Positions 1 through 33,959 of a DNA stretch of 64,000 nucleotides are shown here, piece after piece (positions within the stretch are counted from its first letter, which is position 1; every line of letters begins with the position of its first letter). The DNA is taken from positions 1,054,001-1,118,000 of the forward strand of contig OZ287085.1 in the NCBI GenBank assembly GCA_965645245.1, in the 5' to 3' direction. Made by a program: the position numbers and the translations under genes. The notes under the pieces were generated by a model. That model saw only the letters and a list, made by a program, of their open reading frames with translations, was not told where the DNA came from and did no database searches. Source of the stretch: Massalongia carnosa. Its lineage: Eukaryota.

Positions 1-670
1 AACGCTCTTCAAGATCCTTTATATCCTGCTTATGCGTGGTGCTTATCCAGCCCAGTATCTGTAGAGCCCTGCTTCCCCATTTTGCTTTTGACGATCCTTC
101 AAAGGGCGTTCCTAGGAAGACGACTCCAATCGTTCTCTCAACGAGGGTAGTGCTAGATATGTCAGTACCGTTGTGCCTTGACAGCGCATTGGCGCACACG
201 AGACCCCTTAGGCTGTGCGAGACGAAAATAATCGGCCGTTCAGCCTGGACATAGACATCCTATTAGCATATTTCTGGTGGAAAGGTAGGGGTGCACCAAT
301 TCTTATAGTTTTGGTTTTCTCGCGGAGACCGATTAGGCCCTGGAACATTGCAGCCGCGTGATCATCAATAGTCAAATGCTCCGGGATGAATTTCGGTCCA
401 ACAAACGGATAGAAGTGAGCAAAGTCCGCATTGTACCCAAAAGAAGGATGCGAGCTGTTGGGGCTTGAGATAAGAGATCTTGCGGCCACAACAGCGATTT
501 ATCTAGACCCTCCCATGTCCAAGTTTTCACTGTCGCCGAACCCGTGGACGAAGACAATACTGTTTGGTCAGTACAAAGCAACCCGGACAAGAAATGACAT
601 CTGGTCCGTACTCTATATTCGCCTCTGGAGAATCAAAGAGGGGGTCGCCTAATCCATACGGTTCGGCCAT
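1..670 (-). pseudogene. SesB-like alpha/beta-hydrolase, copy A (5' part only; frameshifted, intron-2 donor mutated GT>AT)
   Basis: Mirror of 20238-20907. Encodes MAEPYG, IVFVHG, FGYNADF, IIFVSHSLRGL and GVVFLGTPFEGS, with the same lesions as copy B. Confidence 0.8.
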
Positions 671-1012: not shown

Positions 1013-4000
1013 ATGGCCGGCAACACGCTAGCAGTCTCTACAGGCGCGAAGGATTTTGGCACCATTTCTGGCAACCAAGGCGCTGTGGTCGGTGACGTCT
1101 CAGGCCATGCGAAAGTGATTGGTCTGGGTCCTGTTCACATCGATATTGATCTTATGCTAAATCCTGATCAGGATCTCAGATATACAGTATTGTTCAATAT
1201 CCAGGCAAGTCGGCATTCGCAATGATATAGCGTTCTGTGAGCCAAGGCTGATAGCATTCTGCGTTTGTAGAAAGACCCGATACCCCACCAAGCCCATCAT
1301 CTACTGTTCCTTTCCGCCGCGACTCTGATTTCGTCGATCGCGGAAAGCTACTTGATCAGATCCACGAAAAGTGCTCCGCGCCAGCGTCAAGGGTAGCGCT
1401 TGTCGGCCTAGGCGGCGTTGGGTAAGCCAAAGGGCCTCAGGCTAGTTCTAATAGCTTACTTTCGCAAAGAAAGTCGCAGCTCGCCATCGAATACTGCTAT
1501 CGAATCAGAGAGCAGTTACCGGCGACGTGGGTTTTCTGGATACACGCCAGCAACGCAGCCCGTATCGAGCAAGGTTATAGAGAGATTGCAGAGCGAGTCA
1601 AGATTCCTGGCAGGGGGGACCCAAAGGCGGACATATTCCGGCTAGTTGACAAGTGGTTACGTGACGAGAAGAACGGAAAGTGGGCTCTGGTCCTCGACAA
1701 TGCCGACGAAGCTACTGTGCTTTTCGAAACTTGTGTTACGGGCCAGAAGACGCAGGCCAGCGGCTCTAGCGGCGGATCCATGCAATCACAGTTAGCATAT
1801 CTACCTCAGAGCCGAAACGGCTCGATTCTCATCACCTGCCGGACCAAAAGCGTGGCATTGCAGCTAGCGGAAGCAAATGACATAATACCGATTGAGCCGA
1901 TGAATCATACACATGCGCTAACGCTTCTTGAAAAGAAGCTGGGAGAACAGACCGATAGAGAAGATACTTCTGAGCTAGCAGTAGCACTTGAATTTATGCC
2001 GCTTGCCATTGTTCAAGCGGCTGCATACATTCGACTAAGAGTACCAAGATATTCTGTACGACAGTACATAGATGAGTTTCATAAGAATGATAAAAAAAGA
2101 ACTAGTCTTTTGAATCACGAAGCGGGACATCTTCGCAGGGACCGTGAGGCTAAAAACTCGATCATTATAACCTGGCAAATATCGTTTGATCATATTCATC
2201 AGACTAGGCCTTCGGCGGCTAATCTGCTGTCGCTTATGAGCTTTTTCGATCGACAGGGAATTCCGGAGGCTTTACTCAAGACACAAAATGAGGCAGGAAA
2301 TGAAAATACGGGAGAAAATGCTGGAGATGACGAAGATGATGACCACGAAGACGATAGCGATGAGGATACCGTATCCGATTCCAACGTTGACAAGTTTGAA
2401 AACAACATACTTATCTTGAGAGACTATTCATTCATCACCATCAGCATGGATGGAACTACCTTTGAGATGCACGGGCTAGTGCAGCTAGCCATCAGAAAGT
2501 GGCTAGAAGCATCTAATCAGCTCGAAAGATGGAAGCAGCAGTTCATCAAGAATCTCAGTACAGTATTTCCGACGGGAAAGTACGAGAATTGGACAAAGTG
2601 TCAAGCGCTTTTTCCTCACGCAAAGTCGGCAGTAGCACAGCAGCCAGCTGTCGAAAGCTCATTACAAGATTGGGCCTTGATACTATATCACGCTGCGTGG
2701 TATGCGTTGGCGAAAGGGAGTTACGTTGAAGCAGCGACAATGGCCTTAAAAGCAACAAGAACCAGGCAAAAAGTGCTGGGTCTAGAGGATGAAAAGACAT
2801 TGGAGAGTATGGCTATGCTAGCCATGGCATACAGCCATGGAGGGCGACCAAAGGAGGCAGAAAAGCTGGAGGTGCAAGTGATGGAGACGAGAAAGAGGGT
2901 GCTAGGGACGGAGCATCCACACACGCTGACCAGCATGAGCAACCTTGCGTCGACGTATTCGAATCAAGGACGATGGACGGAGGCCGAAGAGCTGGGGTTG
3001 CAAGTGATGGAGAAGAGTGCGAGGGTGCTAGGGACGGAGCATCCAGACACGCTGACCAGCATGAGCAACCTTGCATCGACGTATTCGAATCAAGGACGAT
3101 GGACGGAGGCCGAAGAGCTGAAGGTGCAAGTGATGGAGACGAGTGCGAGGGTGCTAGGGACGGAGCATCCTTCCACGCTGATGAGCATGAGCAACCTTGC
3201 GGCGACGTACGGGAATCAAGGACGATGGACGGAGGCCGAAGAGCTGGAGGTGCAAGTGATGGAGACGAGAAAGAGGGTACTAGGGACGGAGCATCCACAC
3301 ACGCTGACCAGCATGAGCAACCTTGCGTCGACGTATTCGGATCAAGGACGATGGACGAAGGCCGAAGAGCTGAAGGTGCAAGTGATGGAGACGAGAAAGA
3401 GGGTACTAGGGACGGAGCATCCACACACGCTGATGAGCATGGGCAACCTTGCGTTGACGTATTCGAATCAAGGACGATGGACGGAGGCCAAAGAGCTGGG
3501 GGTGCAAGGGATGGAGACGAGAAAGAGGGTGCTAGGGACGGAGCATCCACACACGCTGATGAGCATGGGCAACCTTGCGTCGACGTATCGGAATCAAGGA
3601 CGATGGACGGAGGCCGAAGAGCTAGAGGTGCAAGTGATGGAGACGAGTGCGAGGGTGCTAGGGACGGAGCATCCTTCCACGCTGACCAGCATGAGCAACC
3701 TTGCGTCGACGTATTTCAATCAAGGACGATGGACGGAGGCCGAAGAGCTGGGGGTGCAAGTGATGGAGACGATAAAGAGGGTGCTAGGGACGGAGCATCC
3801 AGACACACTGATCAGCATGAGCAACCTTGCGTCGACGTATTCGAATCAAGGACGATGGACGGAGGCCGAAGAGCTGGAGGTGCAAGTGATGGAGACGAAA
3901 AAGAGGGTGCTAGGGACGGAGCATCCTTCCACGCTGACTAGCATGAACAACCTTGCGTTGACGTATTCGAATCAAGGACGATGGACGGAGGCCGAAGAGC

Positions 4001-4245
4001 TGGGGGTGCAAGTGATGGAGACGAAAAAGAGGGTGCTAGGGACGGAGCATCCTTCCACGCTGACTAGCATGAACAACCTTGCATTCACGTGGAAGTCTCA
4101 AGGCCGCAATGATGAGGCTCTCTCACTGCTAAAGGAATGTTTTGAGCTAAGAAAACACAAATTGGGTCCTCAACATCCTGATACAGAGTCTTCGCTTGAG
4201 GCTCTCAATGGGTGGCAGATGAAGAGTTTATCATTGGAGTCTTAA
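1013..4245 (+). CDS. Fungal NLR (short N-terminal motif - NB-ARC - TPR), copy A, ~1022 aa; exons 1013-1121, 1172-1204, 1271-1421, 1470-4245
   Basis: Splicing gives VPFRRDSDFVDR...ALVGLGGVG|KSQLAIEY (Walker A split by a 48-nt GT-AG intron), Walker B WALVLDNAD, LEFMPLAIVQAAAYI and MHGLV. These are followed by 10 near-identical 42-aa TPR units (VLGTEHPxTLxSMxNLAxTYxNQGRWTEAEEL). No internal stops. Confidence 0.92.
2872..4132 (+). repeat. 126-bp tandem TPR-coding repeats (10 units) in NLR A
   Basis: GTEH occurs 10 times at 42-aa spacing, with very high nucleotide identity between units. Confidence 0.95.
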
Positions 4246-7903: not shown

Positions 7904-8237
7904 GGCGTTCTATGCCTTATTGTCAGGATCTGTATCCGTCAATGAATGAGCTGAATTGAGTATGAGAGCAACGACCAGCTTTGTTTACGGTACGCCTTGA
8001 GTTCGCGTGCCTCTCCCGGCTCGTACGATTTATGACATTTGCGGCGAAAGGCTCATCCCGCCGTTTCCACTTAACACCTGACCTCAACCTCACACGTGCC
8101 ATACTAAGCTACATCTGGCCATATATTTTCCATCATTCAGCCCATTTACTTGGTAATATTACAACAAGTTTGCTATCTCGGAGACCAACTCGATCAACAC
8201 TGCATCACAACATCGTCTTCGTCCACCAACCCCAAAG

Positions 8238-9264
8238 ATGCCCTCCTCCAGCACAAGCATAGCCATCATCGGCGCCGGTTCCGTCGGCTCCTCCATCGCT
8301 CACTCCCTTCTCCTCCGCCGCCTCGTCGGCGAGCTCATCCTCGTCGACATCGACCAAAACCGCTGCCGCGCGCAAATCCTCGACCTCTCCGATGCTTCCT
8401 ATCTCTCTCACGTACGAGTCAAGCACGGGGATCATGTTTCTGCAGGTCAAGCAGATATCATCATCATTACAGCGGGCGCGAAGCAGAATCCTGGAGAGTC
8501 AAGGTTGGATCTCGTGGATAGAAACTTCAAGATTCTACAAAGTGTGCTAGGGGGGATGCAGCCGATTAGGAAGGATGCGGTTCTCCTGCTTGTGGCGAAT
8601 CCCGTGGACGTCTTGACGCATTTTGCGCAGAAGCTTTCGGGGCTGCCGAGAGAGCAGGTGTTGGGGAGTGGGACATTGCTGGATTCTATCCGACTGAGGA
8701 GTCAGATTGCTGAGAAGCTAGGGGTGAGTGGCTCGGTGTCCCGTTGAAGATGAGGGGACTGATGGCGGTGCAGGTCGCCGACTCAAATATCAGTGCACAT
8801 ATCCTCGGCGAGCATGGAGACTCTCAATTCGTGCGTCTCACCTTTCCCTTCCTTTGCCACCCTACTCACACGCATCTCAGGTCCACTGGTCAGCCGTCTC
8901 TGTCGCCGGTGCCCCCCTCTCCACTCTACTCACCCTCACTCTTGACGAACGTCAAACTATCGCAACAATCGTCAAGTCTAAAGCCATGGACATCATCGCC
9001 TCCAAAGGCTTCACCGCCTACGGCATCAGCGCAGCAGCGACCTCGATTTGTGAAGCTATCGTCTACGATCAGCATCAGATCTTCCCACTCAGTCACTGGC
9101 AAGAGGATTTACAGTGCTGTTTGAGTCTTCCAGCGGTTTGGGGGAGGTCAGGCCTTGTGAAGACGGTGAAGATACAGTTGAATGAGGAGGAGAGAAGGCT
9201 GGTTACCGAGTCGGCGAAGCAGTTGAGGAGTGTTATTGAGCATTGTTTGAAGAATCATTCGTAG
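8238..9264 (+). CDS. ldh: L-lactate dehydrogenase, 308 aa; exons 8238-8723, 8774-8830, 8881-9264
   Basis: IGAGSVG Rossmann motif, TAGAKQNPGESRLDL (Gln at the LDH specificity position), VANPVD, SGTLLDSIR and GEHGDSQ. Two 50-nt GT-AG introns restore one open frame. Confidence 0.9.
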
Positions 9265-16661: not shown

Positions 16662-19600
16662 TTAAGATTCCACTGTTAAACTCTCCTTCTGCCACTTATT
16701 GAGAACCTTAAGCGAAGACTCTGTATGAGGATGTTGAGGACCCAATTTGTGTTTTCTTAGCTCAAAACATTCCTTTAGCAGTGAGAGAGCCTCATCATTG
16801 CGGCCTTGAGACTTCCACGTGAATGCAAGGTTGTTCATGCTAGTCAGCGTGGAAGGATGCTCCGTCCCTAGCACCCTCTTTTTCGTCTCCATCACTTGCA
16901 CCCCCAGCTCTTCGGCCTCCGTCCATCGTCCTTGATTCCAATACGTCGACGCAAGGTTGCCCATGCTGATCAGCGTGTGTGGATGCTCCGTCCCTAGCAC
17001 CCTCGCACTCGTCTCCATCACTTGCACCTCTATCTCTTCGGCCTCCATCCATCGTCCTTGATTCCGATACGTCGACGCAAGGTTGCTCATGCTGGTCAGC
17101 GTGGAAGGATGCTCCGTCCCTAGCACCCTCTTTCTCGTCTCCATCACTTGCATCTCCAGCTCTTCGGCCTCCGTCCATCGTCCTTGATTCCAATACGTCG
17201 ACGCAAGGCTGCTCATGCTGGTCAGCGTGGAAGGATGCTCCGTCCCTAGCACCCTCGCACTCGTCTCCATCACTTGCACCCCCAGCTCTTCGGCCTCCAT
17301 CCATCGTCCTTGATTCCGATACATCGACGCAAGGTTGCTCATGCTGGTCAGCGTGTCTGGATGCTCCGTCCCTAGCACCCTCGCACTCGTCTCCATCACT
17401 TGCACCCCCAGCTCTTCGGCCTCCGTCCATCGTCCTTGATTCGAATACGTCAACGCAAGGTTGCCCATGCTCATCAACGTGGCTGGATGCTCCGTCCCTA
17501 GCACCCTCTTTCTCGTCTCCATCACTTGCACCCCCAGCTCTTCGGCCTCCGTCCATCGTCCTTGATTCGAATACGTCAACGCAAGGTTGCCCATGCTCAT
17601 CAGCGTGTCTGGATGCTCCGTCCCTAGCACCCTCTTTCTCGTCTCCATCACTTGCACCTCCAGCTCTTCGGCCTCCGTCCATCGTCCTTGATTCGAATAC
17701 GTCGACGCAAGGTTGCCCATGCTGATCAGCGTGTGTGGATGCTCCGTCCCTAGCACCCTCTTTCTCGTCTCCATCACTTGCACCTCCAGCTCTTCGGCCT
17801 CCGTCCATCGTCCTTGATTCGAATACGTCAACGCAAGGTTGCCCATGCTCTTCAGCGTGTATGTATGCTCCGTGCCTAGCACCCTCGCACTCGTCTCCAT
17901 CACTTGCACCTCCAGCTCTTCGGCCTCCGTCCATCGTCCTTGATTCGAATACGTCAACGCAAGGTTGCTCATGCTGGTCAGCGTGGAAGGATGCTCCGTC
18001 CCTAGCACCCTCGCACTCGTCTCCATCACTTGCACCTGCAGCTTTTCTGCCTCCTTTCGTCGCCCTTCATAGCTGTATGCCATGGCTAGCATAGCCATAC
18101 TATCCAATGTCTTTTCATCCTCTAGACCAAACAATTTTTGCCTGGTTCTTGTTGCTTTTAAGGCCATTGTCGCTGCTTCAAAGTAACTCCCTTTCGCACA
18201 CGCATACCACGCAGCGTGATGTAGTATCAAGGCCCAATCTTGTAATGAGCTTTCGACAGCTGGCTGCTGCGCTACTGCCGACTTTGCGTGAGGAAAAAGT
18301 GCTTGACACTTTGTCCAATTCTCGTAATCTCCGTTCGGAAATACTGTACAGAGATTCTTGATGTACTGCTGCTTCCATCTTTCGAGCTGATTGGATGCTT
18401 CTAGCCACTTTCTGATGGCTAGCTGCACTAGCCCGTGCATCTCAAAGGTAGTTCCATCCATGCTGATGGTGATGAACGAATAGTCTCTCAAGATAAGTAT
18501 GTTGTCTTCAAACTTGTCAACGTTGGAATCGGATACGGTATCCTCATCGCTATCGTCTTCGTGGTCATCATCTTCGTCATCTCCAGCATTTTCTCCCGTA
18601 TTTTCATTCCCTGCCTCATTTTGTGTCTTGAGTAAAGCCTCCGGAATTCCCTGTCGATCGAAAAAGCTCATAAGCGACAGCAGATTAGCCGCCGAAGGCC
18701 TGGTCTTATGAATATGATCAAACGATATTTGCCAGGTTATAATGATCGAGTTTTTAGCCTCACGGTCCCTGCGAAGATGTCCCGCTTCGTGATTCAAAAG
18801 ACTAGTTCTTTTTTTATCATTCTTATGAAACTCATCTATGTACTGTCGTACAGAATATCTTGGTACTCTTAGTCGAATGTATGCAGCCGCTTGAACAATG
18901 GCAAGCGGCATAAATTCAAGTGCTGCTGCTAGCTCAGAAGTATCTTCTCTATCGATCTGTTCTCCCAGCTTCTTTTCAAGAAGCGTTAGCGCATGTGTAT
19001 GATTCATCGGCTCAATCGGTATTATGTCATTTGCTTCCGCTAGCTGCAATGCCACGCTTTTAGTCCGGGAGGTGATGAGAATCGAGCCGTTTCGGCTCTG
19101 AGGTAGATATGCTAACTGTGATTGCATGGATCCGCCGCTAGAGCCGCTGGCCTGCGTCTTCTGGCCCGTAACACAAGTTTCGAAAAGCACAGTAGCTTCG
19201 TCGGCATTGTCGAGGACCAGAGCCCACTTTCCGTTCTTCTCGTCACCTAACCACTTGTCAACTAGCCGGAATATGTCCGCCTTTGGGTCCCCCCTGCCAG
19301 GAATCTTGACTCGCTCTGCAATCTCTCTATAACCTTGCTCGATACGGGCTGCGTTGCTGGCGTGTATCCAGAAAACCCACGTCGCCGGTAACTGCTCTCT
19401 GATTCGATAGCAGTATTCGATGGCGAGCTGCGACTTTCTTTGCGAAAGTAAGCTATTAGAACTAGCCTGAGGCCCTTTGGCTTACCCAACGCCGCCTAGG
19501 CCGACAAGCGCTACCCTTGACGCTGGCGCGGAGCACTTTTCGTGGATCTGATCAAGTAGCTTTCCGCGATCGACGAAATCAGAGTCGCGGCGGAAAGGAA

Positions 19601-19894
19601 CAGTAGATGATGGGCTTGGTGGGGTATCGGGTCTTTCTACAAACGCAGAATGCTATCAGCCTTGGCTCACAGAACACTATATCATTGCGAATGCCGACTT
19701 GCCTGGATATTGAACAATACTGTATATCTGAGAGCCTGATCAGGATTTAGCATAAGATTAATATCGATGTGAACAGGACCCAGACCAATCACTTTCGCAT
19801 GGCCTGAGACGTCTCCGACCACAGCGCCTTGATTGCCAGAAATGGTGCCAAAATCCTTCGCGCCTGTAGAGACTGCTGGCGTGTTGCCGGCCAT
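16662..19894 (-). CDS. Fungal NLR (motif - NB-ARC - TPR), copy B, ~1022 aa, 10 TPR units
   Basis: Same four-exon structure as copy A and an open reading frame. The repeat array differs unit by unit from A. Confidence 0.92.
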
Positions 19895-20237
19895 TGCAGT
19901 GTCAGAAGATTGTAGACATTAGAGCTATAGGCTATATTGAAAAAGACTGAAAACTCTTATCTTTACCGTGCTCAGGACCGCACATAGGTTCGGTTAGAAA
20001 GTCAACGCCCTAGACTTCCCAAAGGCACTGTTCATCTCTAAGTATAAATATAGGTATGGACTCGCCGATGGAGGGCACCCCGCCATCATGCGGGATAGAT
20101 GGCAGATAGAGCTAAGGCTATGCACGTGCTGAAGCGCCTGGTCTCTCCATGCAGGCGCTATCACGATTATCTCGCATAAGTTATAGTGCTAAATTTGAAG
20201 CACGACTCCTCTGTAGTATTGCGATGACAACGCCAGC

Positions 20238-21432
20238 ATGGCCGAACCGTATGGATTAGGCGACCCCCTCTTTGATTCTCCAGAGGCGAATATAGAGTAC
20301 GCACCAGATGTCATTTCTTGTCCGGGTTGCTTTGTACTGACCAAACAGTATTGTCTTCGTCCACGGGTTCGGCGACAGTGAAAACTTGGACATGGGAGGG
20401 TCTAGATAAATCGCTGTTGTGGCCGCAAGATCTCTTATCTCAAGCCCCAACAGCTCGCATCCTTCTTTTGGGTACAATGCGGAATTTGCTCACTTCTATC
20501 CGTTTGTTGGACCGAAATTCATCCCGGAGCATTTGACTATTGATGATCACGCGGCTGCAATGTTCCAGGGCCTAATCGGTCTCCGCGAGAAAACCAAAAC
20601 TATAAGACTCGGTGCACCCCTACCTTTCCACCAGAAATATACTAATAGGATGTCTATGTCCAGGCTGAACGGCCGATTATTTTCGTCTCGCACAGCCTAG
20701 GGGGTCTCGTGTGCGCCAATGCGCTTTCAAGGCACAACGGTACTGACATATCTAGCACTACCCTCGTTGAGAGAACGATTGGAGTCGTCTTCCTAGGAAC
20801 GCCCTTTGAAGGATCGTCAAAAGCAAAATGGGGAAGCAGGGCTCTACAGATACTGGGCTGGATAAGCACCACGCATAAGCAGGATATAAAGGATCTTGAA
20901 GAGCGTTCGGCAAAGCTCATCAGCGTTAACGAAGCTTTCCAGAAATTCCTGAAAGCACAGTTTGTGGAAGTAGCTTGTTTCTTTGAACAGTATGCTATAT
21001 ATAAAGGAGGGACGAAGATAGGATTTATTGTGCTCAAGGAATCGGCTTGCCTGCCTGGTATCGATCCACAGTCAATCCAGGCGAACCATGTTGATATGTG
21101 CAAGTTTGAGGATGAAGATCGAGAGGGATACAAGAGAATTCCACAAAAATTGGCTCAATGGATATCGGATCTTGATAGTCGATCCAAGGGATCTGAAGAG
21201 GATCGCCAGGTCTGACATCTCTTTCGCGCGCTTGAAATCAGCTGAAACCCAACAGAAACATTCGGTTCGTATGGGCGATATTAAATTCAGGGACAAAATC
21301 GATAACAATCGAGGTGTGCTTATGGGTCATGCAAACAGTACGGCCATAGACGGGGTTAGGATAACTGGAAGTAATATCATTGTAAAGATCACCTATCCTT
21401 TCGATAGCGATGTACAAGCTGATAGAGCATAA
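20238..21432 (+). pseudogene. SesB-like alpha/beta-hydrolase with C-terminal candidate amyloid motif, copy B (disrupted)
   Basis: DIVFVHG, IIFVSHSLGGL nucleophile elbow, VFLGTP and ANHVDMCKF. The last exon encodes KHSVRMGDIKFRDKIDNNRGVLMGHANSTAIDGVRITGSNIIVKITYP. A 5-nt deletion leads to TAA at 20407-20409, and the intron donor at 20602 is AT instead of GT. Confidence 0.85.
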
Positions 21433-22158: not shown

Positions 22159-22410
22159 CAGTGTTCGCAATGGAGTGACTGGATTGGATTGGAGTGGCGC
22201 TCCAATCCAATCCATTAAGTCTAGACCTATATGGATTGGAGTCCATTAAGATTAAACCTTAATGGATTGGACTCCATTAAGGAATATATTTAATGGATGG
22301 AGTGGATCGGAGTCCATGGATCTCCAGTGGAGTAAATCCAGTGGACTCCACTGGATTAAATCCATTTAATTCATTTAATCCATGGACTCCATGGACTCCA
22401 CTGAAGTGCA
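22159..22410. mobile_element. Probable end of a DNA transposon (hAT-like) with subterminal TGGA/TCCA repeats
   Basis: Starts CAGTGTT exactly where copy B stops matching copy C. Dense TGGATTGGA, TGGACTCCA and TCCATTAA repeats in both orientations. Confidence 0.45.
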
Positions 22411-22419
22411 GTGCGTACA

Positions 22420-22908
22420 GTATTTCTTTGATGCTTTTCGAAAGTCTGTGGCCAATGGTTCCAGCTTTTTCCACCAATCAGGGCCTCGAGTATCAATGAT
22501 CTCATCTTCGTCGGGGTTGGATATCTTCAAAAATCGCTTGAGTTGCTCCCATCTTCGAAGATTCATGGCTTGAATCACCATGTCATGTATGGCAAATTTA
22601 GGATACGTGTTCCAATAGTCAGTAAGACGTGGCATCAGTGTATACCCCATATATAACAGAATTCCCAGAAAAGCTCCTACTTCAGAAGAAGAGGTGTCAT
22701 GCCATTGACGTCTCTTGATGTCGTTTAGGGCATACTTCTTTTTCGCTTTAAGATTGGTGTTTTTAGCTATGATTTCAAGCATTTCAAAGCTAAAGAAGAG
22801 GCAGAATAAAATGAAAGGAGTCTGATTTATCAAGCGCAACGTCTCGTCCGGCTGTGGTTTTCGAAATGGGATCGAAATTGGACAATAATTTGATGACGGA
22901 GGGGGCAT
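22420..22908 (-). pseudogene. piggyBac-like transposase N-terminal fragment
   Basis: PFILFCLFFSFEMLEIIAKNTN...EVGAFLGILLYMG...DYWN...MNLRRWEQLKRFLKIS...KKLEPL matches the piggyBac transposase pattern. Truncated before the DDD core. Confidence 0.8.
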
Positions 22909-23477
22909 GGAGTCAATTATGCTTTGTACGCTGGGTTTATTCTTTTTGGCCTGTTCTTTCAGAATTTAGGGGGGCAAAGCGTCTGATTGGTCAGGAACTT
23001 CTATCTCAATGCCCCTCATGATTATTCTAAAGAAATTGTAGATGTTTTAATGATTTTCAACTGATGTTTACCTTCTTATTTACAAAAAAGGGGAGAATAT
23101 TTTGAAGTTCGCGACTCAGCCCTACGGTATCTCACTAAGCCTATTTAAGGTGGCTGCCAAATTGCCACACGAAGGGATATGCGAAAAGCTTCAGATATCG
23201 GCACGACTTCGGCAATTACGAGGAGGCAAAGGTATGCAGCAAGAATGCTACATTTCGGAGGCAATTCAGCTGTTCATGATCACTGAGTGTCTCGGTGTCT
23301 CCGATCAGCAATGAGGTATATTTTGCCCAGCTGAAAAGGTTCAAAGGAAGCAGGTTCATGCATTTGATATAGGCCGAGATGGAGGCCCTCAAGCAGTATA
23401 AAGAGACGGTGATTTCTCATGTAATTTAGCTATTCAGTCGTTCAGAATTCAGTTCAGCAGATAGCTAAATTTGGAGT

Positions 23478-25076: not shown

Positions 25077-27860
25077 ATGGCGCGGATTATAGATGACACT
25101 GCTCACGCAGTAGTGGAAAATAATTCTTCATACGGCCCCGCACGCTCAACAGTCACAGGCGAGCCCCTCGGCAAAGATGAGGTTCGTCGGATGGACGCCT
25201 ACTTCTCAGCCAGCCTCTATTTATGTCTCCGCTTGCTTTATCTACGCCAGAATCCTTTCTTGAAGGAGCCTCTGGAGTTCAACATCTCAAAGTGTTAGAT
25301 GAGACAGCCATCCTATGTGCCGTGCCAGACGGCAACATAACGGCTTGGGAATAACGTCTCAAGTGATCCGCACACGGCTAGTTAATGAGGTGGTACGGCA
25401 GGGAGATTCAAGGCAAACCTGCCCTGCCGCTGTGCCTGCTCTCTATCTTATTCATCTCTCATCTATCTAGCTATATAAACATAGTAGATAGCCACCTATA
25501 TAGAACAATCAATCCTTCCCACACATACTATTACCTACCTATTTAACTCAACACAAAGCTCGTTGACTTGGACACTAGGGCTCAGATGCAGGTCAAGCTC
25601 TCACATGGATTCCTATGAATCGATTGATCAAGCAATATGACTTGAACGCCCTTTTCATGTCTGGATCTGGACATGGCGCTTCTACTGTGCTCTCTCAGGC
25701 CTATCTCGAGGGACTTACTCGGAGGTCTATCCTGATATCACCGAGGATGTAGAGGGCATGAGGAAGTTCTTCAAGCAGCTCTCCTTCCCAGGCGGAGTTG
25801 ATATCAATGCTACTCCTGAGACTCCAGCAAGTGTGCATGAAGGCGAGGAGCTCGGTTACTCGATTTTTCATGCTTTTAGAACTGTGTTCGACAATCCTAA
25901 TACTATAACGTTGACGATGGTTGAGGATGTTGAAGCGGAGACGAGTTCTCTAGTCATCAGTTGGCACAACATTAAGTATCTCAACTTCATCAACGATAAT
26001 GCAGCTCTTTCTGTGTTGCATCCCAATGAATAAGACTGTGTTGCATCTCAATGAATAAGATCTATAACTCATCGAACTTGTCAAGGATAAGCCACAAGGA
26101 GTTGGAATGCCTCTTCATCGGCTATGAGTGAACATCATACTTCGTTGAAGGAAGTGATCATGAGATCATGCATCAAGCAATGGCAGCTATCATGAAGCGT
26201 TGCGTCCTCGAGATCCGCAATCATCAAGATCAGGCTCGCATCTCAGGTAAAGCCTTCCGTTCACACTGACCTATGATCATTCTCAGCAGCCCGAAGGGAT
26301 GGACCGCACCACGACAAGTTGATGATCACTACCTCGAGGGCTTCTAGCGAGCTCATCAGATTTCAATTATCAATGTGGATACCCATTAAAAGCACCTCGC
26401 TGTACTAGAATAATGGATGCGCAGCTACAAGCCGGAAGAAGTCTTCGATGAAGAGGCACGGCTGATTCCTGAACTGAAGCAACTTGCATCAAGCGGCATT
26501 CATCGTAAGAGTGCGAATTCTGTCGGCAGTGGTGGTGTACTGCGAAAGACGTTAGTTAGGTATGCCAGACGTTCGAGGGTGCAAACTCGATCAAATTGTG
26601 CCTGGAGTTACAGATGACCCAAGCTTGTTCAATATGACAATCTTCTTGCGAGAACTCCTCGCAGCAAATATGCAGAATCTGCGCATATTCGGCCCGGACG
26701 AGACGGAATGAAACCAGCTCGGAGGGGTGTACAAAGTGTCTAGGAAGGTTTGAATAGGCGATTATATGGACGAGGATGCAGATGGTGGAAATCTAGTCTT
26801 CAGCGGTCGTATCATAAAAAAGCTCAGCGAGCATACAGTTGAAGGATGGCTAGAAGGCTACATCCTGTCAGGCCGCCACGGTCTCCTTCAGATTTACGAG
26901 TCCTTCGTCCACCTCGTTGACTCTATGATCAACCAACATTGCAAATGACTCGAAAAATGCAACGAAGTCGAATGACAAGCCAAGGTTTCCTTCCTCAACA
27001 TCCTCATAACCGTCACAGTTTGGCGACAGGACCACAACAGCTTTACACATCAAGTTCCTATTTTTCTCAACGTTGTAGCGAACAAGAGTCCGGAAGTCGT
27101 GCGAACCTACCTTCCACCAGATGGTGACTGTCTCCGCAGTACCAACTACATCAACGTCATCGTAGCAGACAAGCAAAACCACCTACCATACCTCTCCATG
27201 GATGACGCCTTCGCACATTGCACAAAAGGCATTGGAATATAGGACCAGACATTCAGTGATCAAGGCTACTCTCCAGATGTCGTAATGGCAGGATGTGGCG
27301 ACGTTTCAACAGTTGAAGCCCTCGCAGCAACGGCTCTACTCCGCGAGCATCTCCCAGATCTCAAAATACGATTTGTCAATGTGGTCGATCTTTTCAAGCT
27401 CATATACCCAGAACAACATTCCCAGGGCTTTAGCGATGTGCAGTACTCCTCTATCTTCGCATCCGACAAGCCTGTGATCTTCAATTGTCATTCCTACCAT
27501 TGGATGATTCACCGCTTGACATACAAGCGTCCTGGCGCGGGAGCCAACCTACATGTTCATGGGTAGAGGGAGAAAGGAAACCATGACACTCCGCTGAAGC
27601 TGGCTATTCGCAATGGGACCGATAGGTATGGTCTTGGTATCGAGGTCATTGATCGCATGTTACATATTCAGAGTATGACGGGGAGTGTGAGAGATCGATT
27701 CGTGAACGAGCAGATCAAGGTTCGGAATCAGGCGTTGGAGGAAAGGATTGATTCGGAGAGTGTGAGGAAGTGGTCTTGGTCGTTTGCAAAGAGGGAGGAA
27801 GGTTTGAGGAACGTGATTGAGGCGGTGAAACATTTAGGAGTCAGCAGTGGAGGTAAGTAG
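25077..27860 (+). pseudogene. xfp: Phosphoketolase pseudogene, copy C, interrupted by a solo LTR
   Basis: Collinear with copy B apart from the insertion at 25293-25553. Confidence 0.9.
25293..25553. mobile_element. Solo LTR (261 bp)
   Basis: TGTT...AACA ends, a 5-bp TSD CAAAG on both sides, an internal TATATAAA, and absent from copies A and B. Confidence 0.9.
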
Positions 27861-29159: not shown

Positions 29160-32133
29160 TTAAGATTCCACTGTTAAACTCTCCTTCTGCCACTTATTGA
29201 GAACCTTAAGCGAAGACTCTGTATGAGGATGTTGAGGACCCAATTTTTGTTTTTGTAGTTGAAAACATTCCTTTAGCAGTGAGAGAGCTTCATCATTGCG
29301 GCCTTGAGACTTCCACGTGAATGCAAGGTTGTTCATGCAGGTCAGCGTGGAAGGATGCTCCGTCCCTAGCACCCTCTTTCTCGTCTCCATCACTTGCACC
29401 TCCAGCTCTTCGGCCTCCGTCCATCGTCCTTGATTCCAATACGTCGACGCAAGGCTGCTCATGCTGGTCAGCGTGGAAGGATGCTCCGTCCCTAGCACCC
29501 TCTTTCTCGTCTCCATCACTTGCACCCCCAGCTCTTCGGCCTCCGTCCATCGTCCTTGATTCGAATACGTCAACGCAAGGTTGCCCATGCTCATCAGCGT
29601 GTCTGGATGCTCCGTCCCTAGCACCCTCTTTCTCGTCTCCATCACTTGCACCCCCAGCTCTTCGGCCTCCGTCCATCGTCCTTGATTCGAATACGTCAAC
29701 GCAAGGTTGCCCATGCTCATCAGCGTGTCTGGATGCTCCGTCCCTAGCACCCTCTTTCTCGTCTCCATCACTTGCATCTCCAGCTCTTCGGCCTCCGTCC
29801 ATCGTCCTTGATTCGAATACGTCGACGCAAGGTTGCCCATGCTGATCAGCGTGTGTGGATGCTCCGTCCCTAGCACCCTCTTTCTCGTCTCCATCACTTG
29901 CACCCCCAGCTCTTCGGCCTCCGTCCATCGTCCTTGATTCGAATACGTCAACGCAAGGTTGCCCATGCTCATCAGCGTGTCTGGATGCTCCGTCCCTAGC
30001 ACCCTCTTTCTCGTCTCCATCACTTGCATCTCCAGCTCTTCGGCCTCCGTCCATCGTCCTTGATTCGAATACGTCAACGCAAGGTTGCCCATGCTAGACA
30101 GTGTGTCTGAATGCTCCGTCCCTAGTACCCTCTTTCTCGTCTCCATCACTTGCACCCCCAGCTCTTGGGCCTCCGTCCATCGTCCTTGATTGCAATACGT
30201 CGACGCAAGGTTGCTCATGCTGCTCAGCGTGTCTGGATGCTCCGTCCCTAGCACCCTCGCACTCGTCTCCATCACTTGCACCTGCAGCTTTTCTGCCTTC
30301 TTTCGTCGCCCTCCATCGCTGTATGCCATGGCTAGCATAGCCATACTCTCCAATGTCTTTTCATCCTCTAGACCTAGCAATTTTTGCCTGGTTCTTGTTG
30401 CTTTTAAGGCCATTGTCGCTGCTTCAACGTAACTCCCTTTCGCCCACGCATACCACGCAGCATGATATAGTATCAAGGCCCAATCTTGTAATGAGCTTTC
30501 GACAGCTGGCTGCTGCGCTACTGCCGACTTTGCGTGAGGAAAAAGCGCTTGACACTTTGTCCAATTCTCGTAATCTCCCGTCGGAAATACTGTACTGAGA
30601 TTCTTGATGAACTGCTGCTTCCATCTTTCAAGCTGATTGGATGCTTCTAGCCACTTTCTGATGGCTAGCTGCACTAGCCCGTGCATCTCAAAGGTGGTTT
30701 CATTCATGCTGATGGTGATGAACGAATAGTTTCTCAAGATAAGTATGTTGGCTTCAAACTCGTCGACGCTGGAATCGGATACGGTATCCTCATCGCTATC
30801 GTCTTCGTGGTCATCATCTTCGTCATCTCCAGCATTTTCTCCCGTATTTTCATTTCCTGCCTCATTTTGTGTCTTGAGTAAAGCCTCCGGAATTCCCTGT
30901 CGATCGAAAAAGCTCATAAGCGACAGTAGATTAGCCGCCGAAGGCTTGATCTGATGAATATGATCAAATGAAATTTGCCAGGTTATAATAATTGAGTTTT
31001 TAGCCTCCAAGTCCCTTCGAAGATGTCCCCCTTCGTGATTCAAGAGACTTGCTTTTCTTTTATCATTCTTATGGAACTCATCTACATACTGCCGTACTGA
31101 ATATCTTGGTACTCTTTGACGAATGTATGCAGCCGCTTGAACAATGGCAAGCGGCATAAATTCAAGTGCTATTGCTAGCTCAGAAGTATCTTCTCTATCG
31201 ATCTCTTCTTCCAGCTTCTTTTCAAGGAGCGTTAGCGCATGAGTATGATTCATCGGCTCAATCGATATTATGTCACTTTCTTCCGCTAGCTGCAATGCCA
31301 CACTTTTAGCCCGGGTGGTGACGAGAATCGAGCCGTTTCGGCTCTGAGGTAGATATGCTAACAGTGATTTCGTGTGCTCGCCGCTAGACCCGCTGGCCTG
31401 CGCCTTCTGGCCCGTGACAAGAGTTTCGAACAGCACAGTAGCTTCGTCGGCATTGTCGAGGACCAGAGCCCACTTTCCGTTCTTCTCGTCGCGTAACCAC
31501 TTTTCAACTAGCCGGAATATGTCCACCTTTCGATCCTCCCGGCCAGGAATCTTGACTTGCTCTGCAATCTCTCTATAACCTTGCTCGATACGGGCTGCGT
31601 TGCTGGCATGTATCCAGAAAACCCACGTCGCCGGCAACTGCTCTCTGATTTGATAGCAGTATTCGATGGCAAGCTGCGACTTTCTTTGCGAAAGTAAGCT
31701 ATTAGAACTAGCCTGAGGCCCTTTGGCTTACCCAACGCCGCCTAGGCCGACAAGCGCTACCCTTGACGCTGGCGCGGAGCACTTTTCGTGGATCTGATCA
31801 AGTAGCTTTCCGCGATCGACGAAATCAGGGTCGCGGCGGAAAGGAACAGTAGATGATGGGCTTGGTGGGGTATCGGGTCTTTCTACAAACGCAGAATGCT
31901 ATCAGCCTTGGCTCACTATATCATTGCGAATGCCGACTTGCCTGGATATTGAACAATATTGTTTATCTGAGAGCCTAATCAGGATTTAGCTTAAGATCAA
32001 TATCGATGTGAACAGGACCCAGACCAATCACTTTTGCATGGCCTGAGACGTCACCGACCACAGCGCCTTGGTTGCCAGAAATGGTGCCAAAATCCTTCAC
32101 GCCTGTAGAGACTGCTAGCGTGTTACCGACCAT
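29160..32133 (-). CDS. Fungal NLR (motif - NB-ARC - TPR), copy C, ~938 aa, 8 TPR units
   Basis: MVGNTLAVSTGVKDFGTISGNQGAVVGDVSGHAKVIG|SQINNIVQYPE|RPDTPP...GLGGVG|KS, same introns as A, open frame. It is 84 aa (two repeats) shorter than A and B. Confidence 0.92.
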
Positions 32134-32476
32134 TGCTGCGTCAGAAGATTGTAGACATTAGAGATTGTAGATATTAGAGCTCGGAGCTATATTGAATAAG
32201 ACTGAAAACCATTATCTTTACCGTGCTCAGGACCGCACCTAGGCTCGGTCGGAAAGTCGACGCCCAAGACTTTCCAGAAGCACTGTTCATCTCTAAGTAT
32301 AAATATAGGCACGGACTCGCCGATGGAGGGCCCCCCGCTATCATGCGGGATAGATGGCTGATAGAGCCAAGGCTATGCACGTGCTCCATGCAGGCGGTAT
32401 CACGATTATCTCGCATAAGTTATAGTGCTAAATTTGAAGCACGACTCCTCTGTAGTATTGCGATGACAACGCAAGC

Positions 32477-33697
32477 ATGGCCGAACCGTACGGATTTGGC
32501 GACCCCCTCTATGATTCTCCAGAGGCGAATATAGAGTACGCACCAGATGTCATTTCTCGTCCGGGTTGCTTTGTACTGATCAAACAGTATTGTCTTCGTC
32601 CACGGGCTCGGCGGCGATAGAGTGAAAACGTGGACATGGGAAGGTCGAGATAGATCGCTGTTGTGGTCGCAAGATCTCTTACCTCAAGCCTGCCCAACAG
32701 CTCGTATCCTTTCTTTTGGGTACAATGCGGATTTTGCTCATTTCTATCCGTTTGTTGGACCGAAATTCATCCCGGAGCATTTGACTATTGATGATCACGC
32801 GACTGCAATGTTCTAGAGCCTAATCGGTCTCCGCGAGAAAACCAAAATTGTAGGAATCGGCGCACCCCTACCCTTTCCACCAGAAATATGCTAATAAAAT
32901 GTCTATGTCTAGGCTGAACGGCCGATTATTTTCGTCTCGCACAGCCTAAGGGGCCTCGTGTGCGCCAACGCATTGTCAAGGTACAAAGGTACCGACATGG
33001 CTAGCACTACTCTCGTAGAGAGAACGATTGGAGTCGTCTTCCTTGGAACGCCCTTTGAAGGATCGTCAAAAGCAAAATGGGGAAGCAAGGCTCTACAGAT
33101 ACTGGGCTGGATAAGCACCACGCATAAGCAGGATATAAAGGATCTTGAAGAGCGTTCGGCAAAGCTCATCAGCGTTAACGAAGCCTTTCAGAAATTCCTG
33201 AAAGCGCGGGATCGTTCAGAATCAAGAGAGTTTGTGGAAGTAGCTTGCTTCTTTGAACAGTATGCTATGTACAAGGGAGGGACGAAGATGGGGTTTATCG
33301 TGCCCAAGGAATCGGCTCGCCTGCCTGGTATCGATCCACAGTCAATCCAGGCGAATCATGTTGATATGTGCAAGTTTGAGGATGAAGATCGAGAGGGATA
33401 CAAGAGAATTTCACAAAAGTTGGTTCAATGGATATCGGATCTTGATAGTCGATCCAAGGGATCTGAAGAGGATCGCCAGGTCTGACATCTCTTTCGCGCG
33501 CTTGGAATCAGCTGAAACCCAACAGAAACACTCGTATGGGCGATGTTAACTTTAGGGACAAAATCGATAACAATCGAGGTGTGATTATGGGTAATGCAAA
33601 CAGTACTGCCACAGACGGGGTTAGGATAACTGGAAGTAATATCACTGTAAGAATCACCTATCCCCTCGATAGCGATGTACAAGCTGATAGAACATAA
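32477..33697 (+). pseudogene. SesB-like alpha/beta-hydrolase with C-terminal candidate amyloid motif, copy C (disrupted)
   Basis: The N-terminus is intact (IVFVHGLGGDRVKTW...DLLPQACPTARILSFGYNADF). CAG>TAG at 32814-32816, and a 5-nt deletion at the start of the last exon shifts the motif (MGDVNFRDKIDNNRGVIMGNANSTATDGVRITGSNITVRITYP) out of frame. Confidence 0.85.
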
Positions 33698-33959
33698 AGA
33701 ATACTTATCATGGCATTAACCCAAAAGACTCTGTGTAGACCGAGGGATAGGAAATTACGGAACTACTAGTCAACATTGCGGAGTTATTCTAGGACATTAT
33801 TCAGGAACACAAAATTATCAACTGACATTTTGACGTCTTTCAAAACAATGTTTTTCTTGTGCAGTCACCAGCTTCGAGTGGAGGTTGACTCCTTGTGAGA
33901 GGTGAAGAGCTCGCATGACAAGAGTTACAGGCTTCAATAATGCCGCAGCTAGAGGGGGT

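What the first reader, a model, noticed from the sequence alone, without database searches (positions are those of the whole stretch)
19700..21432. Candidate new amyloid signalling motif shared by an NLR N-terminus and the C-terminus of the adjacent SesB-like hydrolase
Seen: the spliced NLR has no effector domain, only ~48 aa before the NB-ARC: FG-TISGNQGAVVGDVSGHA----KVIGSQI(N/Y)(N/S)IVQYP. The head-to-head hydrolase, 343 bp away, ends in FRDKIDNNRGV(I/L)MG(N/H)ANSTA(T/I)DGVRITGSNI(T/I)V(R/K)ITYP (21271-21399 in copy B). The shared pattern is F..I-x-x-N-x-G-x-h-h-G-x5-A...(K/R)-h-x-G-S-(N/Q)-I-x3-h-x-Y-P, rich in G/N and beta-branched residues. The second half is invisible in the ORF track because it sits in a 33-nt micro-exon. 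Known: fungal NLRs activate effectors encoded by neighbouring genes by amyloid templating (NWD2/HET-S, PNT1/HELLP with the PP motif, the sigma motif of SesA/SesB clusters). Inference: this is a two-gene NLR-to-hydrolase amyloid switch. The motif lacks the central Q of PP/RHIM (NxGxQxGxN) and does not look like the HET-s repeat or the Q/N-rich sigma motif, so it may be an undescribed class.
Basis: partly seen in the sequence, partly recalled or inferred. Interest (0 to 1): 0.9.

Follow-up and report, generated by a model that had tools for sequence, protein, structure and literature searches.

The report
NLR–hydrolase pair sharing unnamed signalling motif
A fungal immune-receptor gene and the lipase-like gene next to it carry the same short glycine/asparagine-rich tail, a conserved and apparently unnamed relative of known amyloid signalling motifs, although all three lipase copies in this stretch are broken.

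Summary
The window has three copies of a head-to-head unit: an NB-ARC/TPR NLR and a SesB-like alpha/beta-hydrolase. The NLR N-terminus, including a 33-nt micro-exon, and the hydrolase C-terminus share a ~40-residue G/N/V/I-rich motif.

The motif is not a local accident. I found 69 distinct hydrolase C-termini that carry it, with named hits from four classes of Pezizomycotina. Eight related NLR N-termini carry it too. The two sides align profile-to-profile (P 9e-8). In independent metagenome loci the two neighbours' motifs co-vary.

It fails the tests for PP (PF17046 and my own PP profile), sigma, HET-s/HRAM, PUASM and GDQN. However, its core G-phi-phi-phi-G sits in the same register as the G-phi-Q-phi-G of PP/RHIM, 2 of the 69 keep the Q, and the NLR backbone belongs to a mostly PP-bearing family. 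I read it as an unnamed offshoot of PP with a second tetrad, working by templated co-assembly. That mechanism is inferred, not shown.

Against a working switch here: all three hydrolase copies are pseudogenes (frameshifts, a stop, a lost splice donor, a mutated GxSxG), while the NLRs stay open. No RNA data were available. In passing, I noticed a second, non-NLR partner family that carries the N-terminal motif.

The parts
19786..19894 (-). NLR copy B exon 1: start codon and first half of the motif (core N-x-G-A-V-V-G ... K-V-I-G)
   Evidence: NLR-side profile 79.4 bits
19703..19735 (-). NLR copy B micro-exon (33 nt): second half of the motif (G-S-Q ... Y-P). Flanked by a GT..AG intron (19736-19785) and a GC..AG intron (19637-19702)
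   Evidence: A conserved 30-nt micro-exon with canonical borders is present in L001. The second half is present in P0034, P0074 and P0134
19486..19636 (-). NLR copy B exon 3: Pro-rich linker and start of the NB-ARC (first half of Walker A)
16662..19437 (-). NLR copy B main exon, 939 codons open: NB-ARC, DUF7779 and 12 TPR_10 units. The TPR array at 16825-18054 is 9.8 x 126 bp at 92% identity
19895..20237 (.). 343-bp intergenic region between the two divergent start codons (presumed shared promoter; not tested)
20238..21432 (+). SesB-like hydrolase copy B, a pseudogene. Exon 1 20238-20296; exon 2 20349-20601, with deletions of 5, 3 and 1 nt that give an in-frame stop; intron-2 donor is AT at 20602; exon 3 20664-21209, with a 21-nt deletion; exon 4 21256-21432
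   Evidence: Other public contigs carry the missing bases and a G at 20602
21271..21399 (+). Hydrolase copy B C-terminal motif (core N-x-G-V-L-M-G ... R-I-T-G-S)
   Evidence: 70.4 bits with a profile built from 24 homologues that excluded the window
1013..4245 (+). NLR copy A: exon 1 1013-1121, micro-exon 1172-1204, exon 3 1271-1421, main exon 1470-4245 (939 codons open)
1..670 (-). Hydrolase copy A, N-terminal part only (cut by the window start). It has the same exon-2 frameshifts as copy B and a G->R change in the GxSxG elbow
29160..32133 (-). NLR copy C: exon 1 32025-32133, micro-exon 31942-31974, exon 3 31732-31882, main exon 29160-31683 (855 codons open)
32477..33697 (+). Hydrolase copy C, a pseudogene: an in-frame TAG in exon 2, a G->R change in the GxSxG elbow, and a 5-nt deletion at the start of exon 4 that puts the motif (33527-33664) out of frame

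Best explanation
This is a decaying, triplicated copy of a two-gene fungal immune module. The sensor is an NB-ARC/TPR NLR with no effector domain. Its first ~47 residues, encoded by exon 1 plus a micro-exon, form a signalling motif. The divergently transcribed partner is a SesB-like alpha/beta-hydrolase that ends in the same motif on a flexible tail.

The motif defines a conserved family that has no name in the literature I could search. Its signature is roughly h-x-h-G-D-V-N-[FY]-x3-I-[DE]-N-N-x-G-V-V-M-G-[HN]-A-Y-[SG]-T-A-x-D-G-V-[RK]-I-x-G-S. In other words it has two G-bounded hydrophobic tetrads. The first sits in the register of the G-phi-Q-phi-G core of PP/RHIM, but with V/I in place of Q.

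The most likely mechanism is inferred by analogy with NWD2/HET-S and PNT1/HELLP/SBP. Ligand-driven oligomerisation of the NLR brings its N-terminal motifs together. They adopt a cross-beta fold, and that fold templates the same fold in the hydrolase tail, which activates or relocates the enzyme.

What is shown: the motif, its conservation, its pairing and its co-variation. What is inferred: the amyloid fold, the templating and the outcome.

In this window the effector side is dead in all three copies while the NLR frames stay open. The local NLRs are therefore either orphaned or signal to an intact paralogue elsewhere.
For: Architecture and domains. Pfam finds TPR_10 (3e-162), DUF7779 and a weak NB-ARC match on the NLR, and DUF676/Abhydrolase_6 on the hydrolase and 17 homologues.

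Conservation on the effector side.
- 25 full-length hydrolase homologues were found. The named ones come from Dothideomycetes, Eurotiomycetes, Sordariomycetes and Leotiomycetes. 24 of the 25 align over the motif; P0025 is divergent.
- A profile search of 1.84 billion representatives gave 42 hits at E<=1e-3. 37 are hydrolase tails or fragments of them.
- In all there are 69 distinct instances, with G at columns 19, 23 and 37 in 67, 63 and 61 of the 69.

- A profile of 24 homologue tails, built without the window, placed all 7 NLR N-termini of this type plus P0047 as the top 8 of 62 NLR N-termini (7.7-16.9 bits). Every other N-terminus scored 5.0 bits or less.
- hhalign between the two sides gave P 9.4e-8.

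Pairing elsewhere.
- L001 has an intact hydrolase (80% identical, all four exons open). It lies head-to-head, 263 bp apart, with an ORF that starts with the NLR-type motif (69.5 bits).
- In L008 and L012/L013 the neighbour's N-terminus and the hydrolase tail share cluster-specific variants. Alignment scores are 86 and 58 on the diagonal against at most 45 and 41 off it.
- The cognate assignment ranks 1 of 24 permutations.
- L009 pairs such a hydrolase with an NB-ARC+TPR gene.

Flexible tail. In the AlphaFold2 model of P0001, residues 290-344 have pLDDT below 50 apart from 330-332 and no secondary structure, behind a confident hydrolase core.

Composition. G 15%, V 12%, N 9%, I 8%, L 1.4%, P 1.2%. 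This fits the bias reported for such motifs (bioRxiv 10.1101/2020.01.06.895854, passage read).

Constraint. The 23-codon motif core of NLR exon 1 shows only synonymous differences between copies B and C (read from the alignment). NLR dN/dS is 0.35-0.6.
Against: - No experiment or transcript supports the fold, the templating or even the splicing. No RNA run was listed.
- All three local hydrolases are disabled, and dN/dS across the hydrolase motif exon is 0.82.
- NLR-side instances are few. There are 8, of which 3 are the window's own copies. A word-seeded search with the NLR-side profile added no further NLR, and none of the 42 profile hits is an NLR N-terminus.
- The similarity of a single NLR/hydrolase pair is modest (p about 0.002).
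- In Lindgomyces and Dendryphion, the motif-bearing NLRs and hydrolases that I found lie on contigs of different length, so those particular proteins are not neighbours.
- Of 8 metagenome loci with a motif-bearing hydrolase and at least 500 bp upstream, 4 showed no partner within the 0.9-1.1 kb available.
- In 3 independent loci the partner is not a recognisable NLR.
Confidence: 0.6

Rival explanations
1. It is simply a divergent member of the PP (RHIM-like) family. It would be caught by the specialists' PP profiles and would cross-seed with PP, so no new family is needed.
For: - The context matches the PP system: an NB-ARC/TPR NLR N-terminus plus a lipase-like effector C-terminus, as in PNT1/SBP (mBio PMC7885112, passages read).
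- 31 of 62 readable N-termini of the related NLRs carry N-x-G-x-Q-x-G at the same place.
- The best, though non-significant, hhalign alignments to PP put N-x-G-phi-x-phi-G in register.
- 2 of 69 effector motifs (P0176, L003) have G-V-Q-[AT]-G.
- On the NB-ARC tree, NLRs with the motif are interleaved with PP-bearing ones.
Against: - The defining G-phi-Q-phi-G (bioRxiv 10.1101/2020.01.06.895854, passage read) is absent in 67 of 69 effector motifs and in 8 of 8 NLR-side motifs.
- Pfam PF17046, which is the PP model according to PMC12261475, gives no hit at E<=1 on the window peptides or on 17 homologues. It is on record, precomputed, for 10 of the 120 listed related NLRs.
- My own PP profile detects canonical PP on hydrolases L052 and L063 (21 bits). 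It gives at most 2.0 bits to the NLR-side motifs and at most 7.9 bits to the effector tails.
- The motif is about twice as long as PP and has a second conserved tetrad.
Confidence: 0.22
2. The shared peptide is not an amyloid switch. It could be a non-amyloid docking or regulatory segment, or sequence shared through the common origin of the two neighbours (partial duplication, or fission of an all-in-one hydrolase-NLR) that has been kept without a signalling role.
For: - All-in-one SesB-like-NB-ARC genes exist among the metagenome relatives. In L018-L021, L029, L032-L035, L037-L043, L046 and L050 the hydrolase match is followed about 1 kb downstream by an NB-ARC match in 14 loci.
- There is no direct evidence of a cross-beta fold.
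- Q is scarce (2.2%), unlike most named fungal motifs.
Against: - The two sides co-vary within clusters across loci that are only 30-58% identical in the hydrolase. This argues for selection on matching rather than for a relic.
- The motif sits on a predicted disordered tail outside the catalytic fold.
- Its composition, length and terminal positions match those reported for amyloid signalling motifs.
- The NLR-side motif has moved between NB-ARC backbones as a module: at least 4 label changes are forced by supported branches.
Confidence: 0.13
3. The whole unit here is a dead, repeat-associated duplicate, NLRs included, and has no present function in this genome.
For: - The window holds three copies in a region full of transposon remains and gene fragments: a piggyBac-like DDE fragment; LINE, Gypsy and Copia elements; and XFP_C fragments flanking the copies.
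- All hydrolase copies are disabled.
- The donor of the intron that follows the micro-exon is GC rather than GT in all three copies.
- Public contigs cover the stretch at very high summed depth in many short pieces, as repeats do.
Against: - The NLR reading frames of 939, 939 and 855 codons, and all small exons, are open in 3 of 3 copies.
- NLR dN/dS is 0.35-0.6, and the motif core has only synonymous changes between B and C.
- GCAAGT is the usual form of functional GC-AG donors (general knowledge, not tested here).
Confidence: 0.3

Closest known systems
PNT1 / HELLP / SBP cluster of Chaetomium globosum (PP motif, RHIM-related)
   Same: - An NLR without an effector domain carries a short motif at its N-terminus, and a neighbouring putative lipase (SBP) carries the motif at its C-terminus (PMC7885112, passages read; PMC3321046).
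- The related NLRs retrieved here mostly carry PP at the same position.
- The core register N-x-G-phi-x-phi-G is shared.
   Different: - The central Q is replaced by V/I/L/M in 64 of 69 effector motifs (A in 2, Q in 2, one gap) and in 7 of 8 NLR-side motifs (A in P0047).
- The motif is about twice as long, with a second [KR]-phi-x-G-[ST] tetrad.
- PP profiles do not detect it.
- No HeLo-like third gene carrying the motif was seen in the window.
- The canonical-PP hydrolases L052 and L063 are only 29-30% identical to this hydrolase clade.
het-eN / SesA / SesB sigma locus of Nectria haematococca (sigma motif)
   Same: A SesB-type alpha/beta-hydrolase whose C-terminal extension is homologous to the N-terminus of an adjacent STAND/NLR protein. 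There, an unnoticed 5' intron hid the NLR-side motif (PMC3321046), much as the micro-exon hides it here.
   Different: The sigma motif is a threefold repeat of GxGxQFNxx / GGTQNINT submotifs, rich in Q and aromatics. None of that is present here. Pfam NACHT_sigma gave no hit at E<=1.
NWD2 / HET-S and the HRAM families
   Same: This is the paradigm of NLR-to-effector amyloid templating between adjacent genes. The motif is G/N-rich and has a basic residue before a hydrophobic-x-G turn.
   Different: - HRAM is a 21-residue unit, present twice on the effector and once on the NLR. It has an invariant G19, hydrophobic residues at positions 5, 8, 10, 16 and 18, and R/K at 15 (PMC4518210).
- Here the NLR carries the whole motif, and the spacing is [KR]-phi-x-G rather than [KR]-phi-x-phi-G.
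- The effectors are hydrolases, not HeLo proteins.
- Pfam PF11558 gave no hit, and no solved amyloid chain matched.
PUASM and GDQN (recent fungal motifs)
   Same: Both are newly recognised NLR/effector motif pairs found by the same genomic logic (PMC9815663; PMC12261475).
   Different: PUASM is FxGxGxQxxGxGxF and is tied to PNP_UDP effectors. GDQN is NxxxGxQYxxxGxGDQNxVSxxxxQxN and is tied to SesA. Neither pattern is present here.

Membership tests
PP / RHIM / BASS3 superfamily | Central G-phi-Q-phi-G signature (pseudopalindrome centred on Q) | tested here: not met
   At the aligned column, Q occurs in 2 of 69 effector motifs; the rest are V39, I18, M4, L3, A2 and one gap. It occurs in 0 of 8 NLR-side motifs. 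The definition comes from passages read.
PP / RHIM / BASS3 superfamily | Detected by PP sequence profiles | tested here: not met
   Pfam PF17046 gave no hit at E<=1 on the window peptides or on 17 homologues. My own PP profile, built from 31 NLR N-termini, gave at most 2.0 bits on the NLR side and at most 7.9 bits on the effector side, while the positive controls L052 and L063 scored 21 bits. hhalign gave P 0.13 and 0.14. The authors' own profiles could not be read.
PP / RHIM / BASS3 superfamily | Context: N-terminus of an NB-ARC/TPR NLR and C-terminus of a neighbouring lipase-like effector | tested here: met
sigma motif | Threefold repetition of submotifs GxGxQFNxx / GGTQNINT | tested here: not met
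   No such submotif is present in the alignments. Pfam NACHT_sigma gave no hit at E<=1.
HET-s / HRAM | A 21-residue unit with G19, hydrophobic residues at 5, 8, 10, 16 and 18, and R/K at 15; two units on the effector and one on the NLR | tested here: not met
   I compared the pattern by eye with the columns. The spacing differs, and the NLR carries the full-length motif. Pfam PF11558 gave no hit. No solved chain matched at E<=10 apart from one chance hit. No HRAM2-5 profiles were on hand.
PUASM / GDQN | FxGxGxQxxGxGxF; NxxxGxQYxxxGxGDQNxVSxxxxQxN | tested here: not met
   The patterns, taken, are absent from the alignments.
NLR-associated amyloid signalling motif (generic) | [quoted passage not shown] | tested here: met
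   Seen in the window (three copies), L001, L008 and L012/L013. The cognate pairing ranks 1 of 24 permutations. In L008, L012 and L031 the partner is not a recognisable NLR.
NLR-associated amyloid signalling motif (generic) | Forms cross-beta fibrils and propagates by templating (prion-like) | not testable with these tools
   Indirect evidence only: composition and a disordered tail.
SesB-like (DUF676-type) alpha/beta-hydrolase effector | Alpha/beta-hydrolase fold with a GxSxG nucleophile elbow | tested here: met
   Met for the homologues: Pfam DUF676/Abhydrolase_6, invariant H117 S118 G120 G121 in 22 sequences, and a confident fold with Foldseek hits to esterases, thioesterases and monoacylglycerol lipases. 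The window's own copies are broken. The elbow glycine is R in copies A and C, and exon 2 is frameshifted in A and B.

The most novel reading that the evidence does not exclude
This is an undescribed fungal amyloid-signalling family. The glutamine-ladder core of PP/RHIM is replaced by an all-hydrophobic G-phi-phi-phi-G tetrad, followed by a second tetrad. The family is dedicated to one clade of SesB-like hydrolases in at least four classes of Pezizomycotina. It is read by two unrelated upstream partners: NB-ARC/TPR NLRs, and a protein with no known domain that carries the motif at its N-terminus.
Probability: 0.4. Interest if true: 0.65.

Novelty: new variant of a known kind. Interest (0 to 1): 0.5.

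Why it matters
Only about five or six families of NLR-associated amyloid signalling motifs are recognised in fungi: HRAM, PP, sigma, PUASM 1-2 and a provisional GDQN (PMC12261475). Each new family has been a useful test of how a cross-beta fold can carry specificity.

A family that keeps the PP register but swaps the buried glutamine for a hydrophobic residue, and adds a second tetrad, would make one question directly testable: is the Q ladder needed for RHIM-like signalling, and how are parallel pathways insulated from cross-seeding in one cell?

It also shows that such motifs are missed for mundane reasons. On the NLR side, half of the motif is in a 30-33-nt micro-exon. On the effector side, prokaryote-style gene callers report the tail as a separate small ORF.

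The non-NLR partner with an N-terminal motif, if real, would widen the set of upstream sensors that use this signalling mode.

For this genome specifically, the finding is a decayed locus and has little functional weight.

Tried and rejected
- **RNA evidence.** The look-up of sequencing runs listed no RNA holder. Laying the four listed runs (Logan contigs, kind unknown) gave DNA-like contigs that run through the introns, and no splice joints. They served only to show that other copies carry the bases missing from hydrolase copy B.
- **Complex prediction.** The NLR-side and effector-side peptides, two copies each, gave 'no answer' (score 0.00). This is not evidence either way. The queue was full on several earlier tries.
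- **Own genome.** None is held, so I could not look for an intact hydrolase paralogue or count motif instances genome-wide.
- **Adjacency in named genomes** (Lobaria, Lindgomyces, Dendryphion). This could not be checked.
- **ESM Atlas.** No usable hit for the non-NLR partner P0150 or for the hydrolase tail.
- **Earlier scan notes.** Nothing relevant.
- **Supplements of PMC9815663.** Five-to-six-letter strings from the motif are absent from the 9 files searched of the 11 held as text; files 9 and 10 were not searched. No rows were found for Lindgomyces, Dendryphion, Lobaria or Patellaria in the part of table S2 that is held; that file is cut. The .hmm and .fa supplements cannot be read. The only SesB-derived motif listed, PF07819_017, clusters with sigma.
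- **Motif NLR34 of PMC9815663.** It marks Fusarium NACHT NLR N-termini and has no effector partner. A link to the Fusarium members of this hydrolase clade could not be tested, because no sequences were available.
- **PNAS 2016 paper on PP/HELLP.** It is not held. What I say about it comes from other papers' passages or from recall.
- **Literature searches.** Searches found no paper describing this motif. Subscription journals are largely outside the library.
- **RIP as the cause of decay.** I considered and dropped this. Differences between copies are transitions in both directions, with no C->T/G->A excess (table 1).
- **L009.** The NB-ARC/TPR neighbour is clear, but I could not resolve an N-terminal motif.
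Full report
**What is in the window**

The finding lies in one of three copies of the same unit.
- Copy B is the one reported.
- Copy A (1-4245) is inverted, about 96-99% identical to B, and cut by the window start.
- Copy C (29160-33697) is direct and about 91-93% identical.

Each unit has a gene for an NB-ARC/TPR NLR and, head-to-head with it, a gene for a SesB-like alpha/beta-hydrolase. On the 939-codon main exon Pfam finds TPR_10 (12 units, E 3e-162), DUF7779 and a weak NB-ARC match. On the hydrolase it finds DUF676, Abhydrolase_6 and Hydrolase_4.

The surroundings are rich in repeats: phosphoketolase (XFP_C) fragments flanking the copies; a piggyBac-like transposase fragment; and LINE, Gypsy and Copia elements.

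The organism is an unnamed member of the Pezizomycotina.
- The closest named NLR is from Lobaria immixta (72% identity).
- The closest named hydrolase is from Lindgomyces ingoldianus (73% identity).

**The observation**

- The NLR starts at 19894.
- Exon 1 (19894-19786) encodes the first half of the motif.
- A 50-nt GT..AG intron follows, then a 33-nt micro-exon (19735-19703) that encodes the second half.
- Next come a 66-nt intron with a GC donor (GCAAGT), a 151-nt exon, a 48-nt intron and the long exon.
- The Walker A motif is reconstituted across the last junction, which supports the model.

The hydrolase starts at 20238, 343 bp from the NLR start, and ends in the motif at 21271-21399.

34 of 20,000 shuffles reach the observed score for copy B, and 24 of 20,000 for copy C.

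No transcript data could be had. The micro-exon therefore rests on comparison:
- Metagenome contig L001 has a 30-nt micro-exon in the same place, with canonical splice sites and the same G-S-Q...Y-P coding.
- Three annotated relatives contain the second half of the motif, and one model skips it.

**The motif is a family, and the two sides belong together**

On the effector side:
- Of 25 full-length hydrolase homologues, 24 end in the same motif.
- A profile made only from window and metagenome sequences found 42 proteins at E<=1e-3 among 1.84 billion representatives.
- 37 of these are such hydrolase tails, many called as separate small ORFs.
- The other 5 are repetitive proteins that I set aside.
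- In all I collected 69 distinct instances.

On the NLR side, the same type of N-terminus occurs in the window's three copies and in proteins from Lobaria, Lindgomyces (two) and Dendryphion. A weaker form occurs in Patellaria.

Three tests tie the two sides together and separate them from PP:
- A profile of 24 hydrolase tails, built without the window, ranks exactly these eight N-termini at the top of 62 NLR N-termini (7.7-16.9 bits against at most 5.0 for the rest).
- The reverse profile finds hydrolase tails as its best foreign hits.
- hhalign aligns the two profiles over 34 columns at P 9.4e-8.

**Pairing outside this genome**

A scan of metagenome contigs with the hydrolase alignment kept 80 loci out of 340 relatives.
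- *L001.* The hydrolase is 80% identical, all four exons are open and the catalytic elbow is intact. The NLR-type motif ORF lies head-to-head, 263 bp away (69.5 bits).
- *L008 and L012/L013.* The neighbour's N-terminus and the hydrolase tail share variants peculiar to that locus (G-G-V-F-A-G-N in one, S-I-A-[AT]-G-H in the other). Alignment scores are 86 and 58 for cognate pairs against at most 45 and 41 for non-cognate ones.
- *All four pairs together.* The true assignment is the best of 24 permutations.
- *L009.* It pairs such a hydrolase with an NB-ARC+TPR gene.
- *The misses.* Of 8 loci with a motif-bearing hydrolase and at least 500 bp upstream, 4 showed a partner. L012 and L013 are near-copies, so 3 of these are independent. 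The other 4 had only 0.9-1.1 kb to search.

This within-cluster co-variation is the argument used in the literature for functional coupling (PMC3321046).

**Relation to known motifs**

- *Pfam.* The models for HET-s, PP (PF17046, which PMC12261475 says is misnamed SesB) and sigma give nothing at E<=1 on the window peptides or on 17 homologues.
- *My own PP profile.* It detects canonical PP on two metagenome hydrolases (21 bits). It gives at most 2.0 bits to the new NLR N-termini and at most 7.9 bits to the tails.
- *hhalign to PP.* P is 0.13-0.14.
- *Published patterns.* The patterns for sigma, PUASM, GDQN and the HRAM template do not fit.
- *Solved structures.* No solved chain matches.

The motif is nevertheless not unrelated to PP.
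- The weak alignments put N-x-G-phi-x-phi-G in the PP register.
- At the Q column the 69 tails have V39, I18, M4, L3, A2 and Q2.
- Half of the related NLRs carry PP in the same position.
- On a quick NB-ARC tree, NLRs with the new motif are scattered among PP-bearing ones. At least 4 changes are forced by supported branches, so the N-terminal module has been exchanged between backbones.

I therefore read it as an unnamed branch of the PP/RHIM lineage that lost the glutamine and gained a second [KR]-phi-x-G-[ST] tetrad. My literature searches and the readable supplements of PMC9815663 show no description of it. The authors' profile files could not be read, and much of the literature lies outside the library.

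**Mechanism**

By analogy with NWD2/HET-S and PNT1/HELLP/SBP, oligomerisation of the NLR would nucleate a cross-beta fold in its N-terminal motif, and that fold would template the hydrolase tail.

Indirect support:
- The tail is predicted disordered behind a confident hydrolase core.
- The core fold is a generic esterase/lipase type.
- The composition is that of beta-arch motifs.
- The NLR-side core is conserved at the protein level between copies.

None of this shows amyloid.

**State of the locus**

Measured against intact homologues, every hydrolase copy here is broken.
- *Copies A and B.* They share 5-, 3- and 1-nt deletions in exon 2 that give a stop, and an AT in place of the GT donor of intron 2.
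- *Copy B.* It also lacks 21 nt of exon 3.
- *Copies A and C.* Both have R in place of the last G of the GxSxG elbow.
- *Copy C.* It also has a TAG in exon 2 and a 5-nt deletion that puts the motif out of frame.

Other public contigs carry the undeleted bases.

dN/dS is 0.20 for hydrolase exon 3 and 0.82 for the motif exon, so the decay looks recent. The NLRs are open, with dN/dS of 0.35-0.6.

**Verdict**

The kind of system is well known. The motif appears to be an unnamed, conserved variant with a PP-like register. In this window the effector side of the module is a relic.

Noticed in passing
L008:745-888(-), L012:8552-8710(-) (also L013), L031:610-738(-); proteins P0149-P0152: A second kind of partner. 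In three independent metagenome loci, the gene head-to-head with a motif-bearing hydrolase is not a recognisable NLR. It is a protein with the motif at its N-terminus followed by a ~220-residue helical region. The predicted proteins are 226-278 aa, and 867 aa in a Diaporthe ilicicola model. There is no Pfam hit and no ESM Atlas hit. Its motif co-varies with that of its hydrolase.
   Followed up: partly
P0176 and L003:1016-1141(+): Two of the 69 hydrolase tails keep G-V-Q-[AT]-G at the core, the G-phi-Q-phi-G of PP/RHIM. They may be intermediates between PP and the Q-less motif.
   Followed up: partly
window 16825-18054 (and the equivalent arrays in copies A and C): The TPR region is a 126-bp tandem array of 9.8 units at 92% identity. 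Unit number differs between copies (main exon of 939 codons against 855). This is the high internal repeat conservation typical of fungal NLR sensor domains.
   Followed up: no
window 20602: The intron-2 donor of hydrolase copy B is AT. The same holds for copy A, as read from its translation. Copy C and other public contigs have GT, so this is a further inactivating change.
   Followed up: yes
window 14746-15360 and 27243-27860; 5924-6400: Fragments of a phosphoketolase gene (XFP_C) flank the NLR copies and are duplicated with them. The duplicated segment therefore carried pieces of an unrelated gene.
   Followed up: no
window 22378-22965(-); 35000-62000: A piggyBac-like DDE transposase fragment lies about 1 kb downstream of hydrolase copy B. 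LINE-, Gypsy- and Copia-type ORFs fill the last 27 kb of the window.
   Followed up: no
window 33720-33830(+): A 37-codon open stretch lies just 3' of hydrolase copy C and resembles the NLR-side motif weakly (15.7 bits). The equivalent stretch in copy B has stops. It may be chance or a relic.
   Followed up: no
L052, L063 (metagenome loci): More distant SesB-like hydrolases (29-30% identical) end in a canonical PP motif (N-S-G-L-Q-L-G-Q-N). Different hydrolase clades therefore use different motifs.
   Followed up: partly
window 8157-9261(+): A lactate/malate dehydrogenase gene (Ldh_1_N and Ldh_1_C) lies between copies A and B. It appears to be an ordinary single-copy gene in the window.
   Followed up: no
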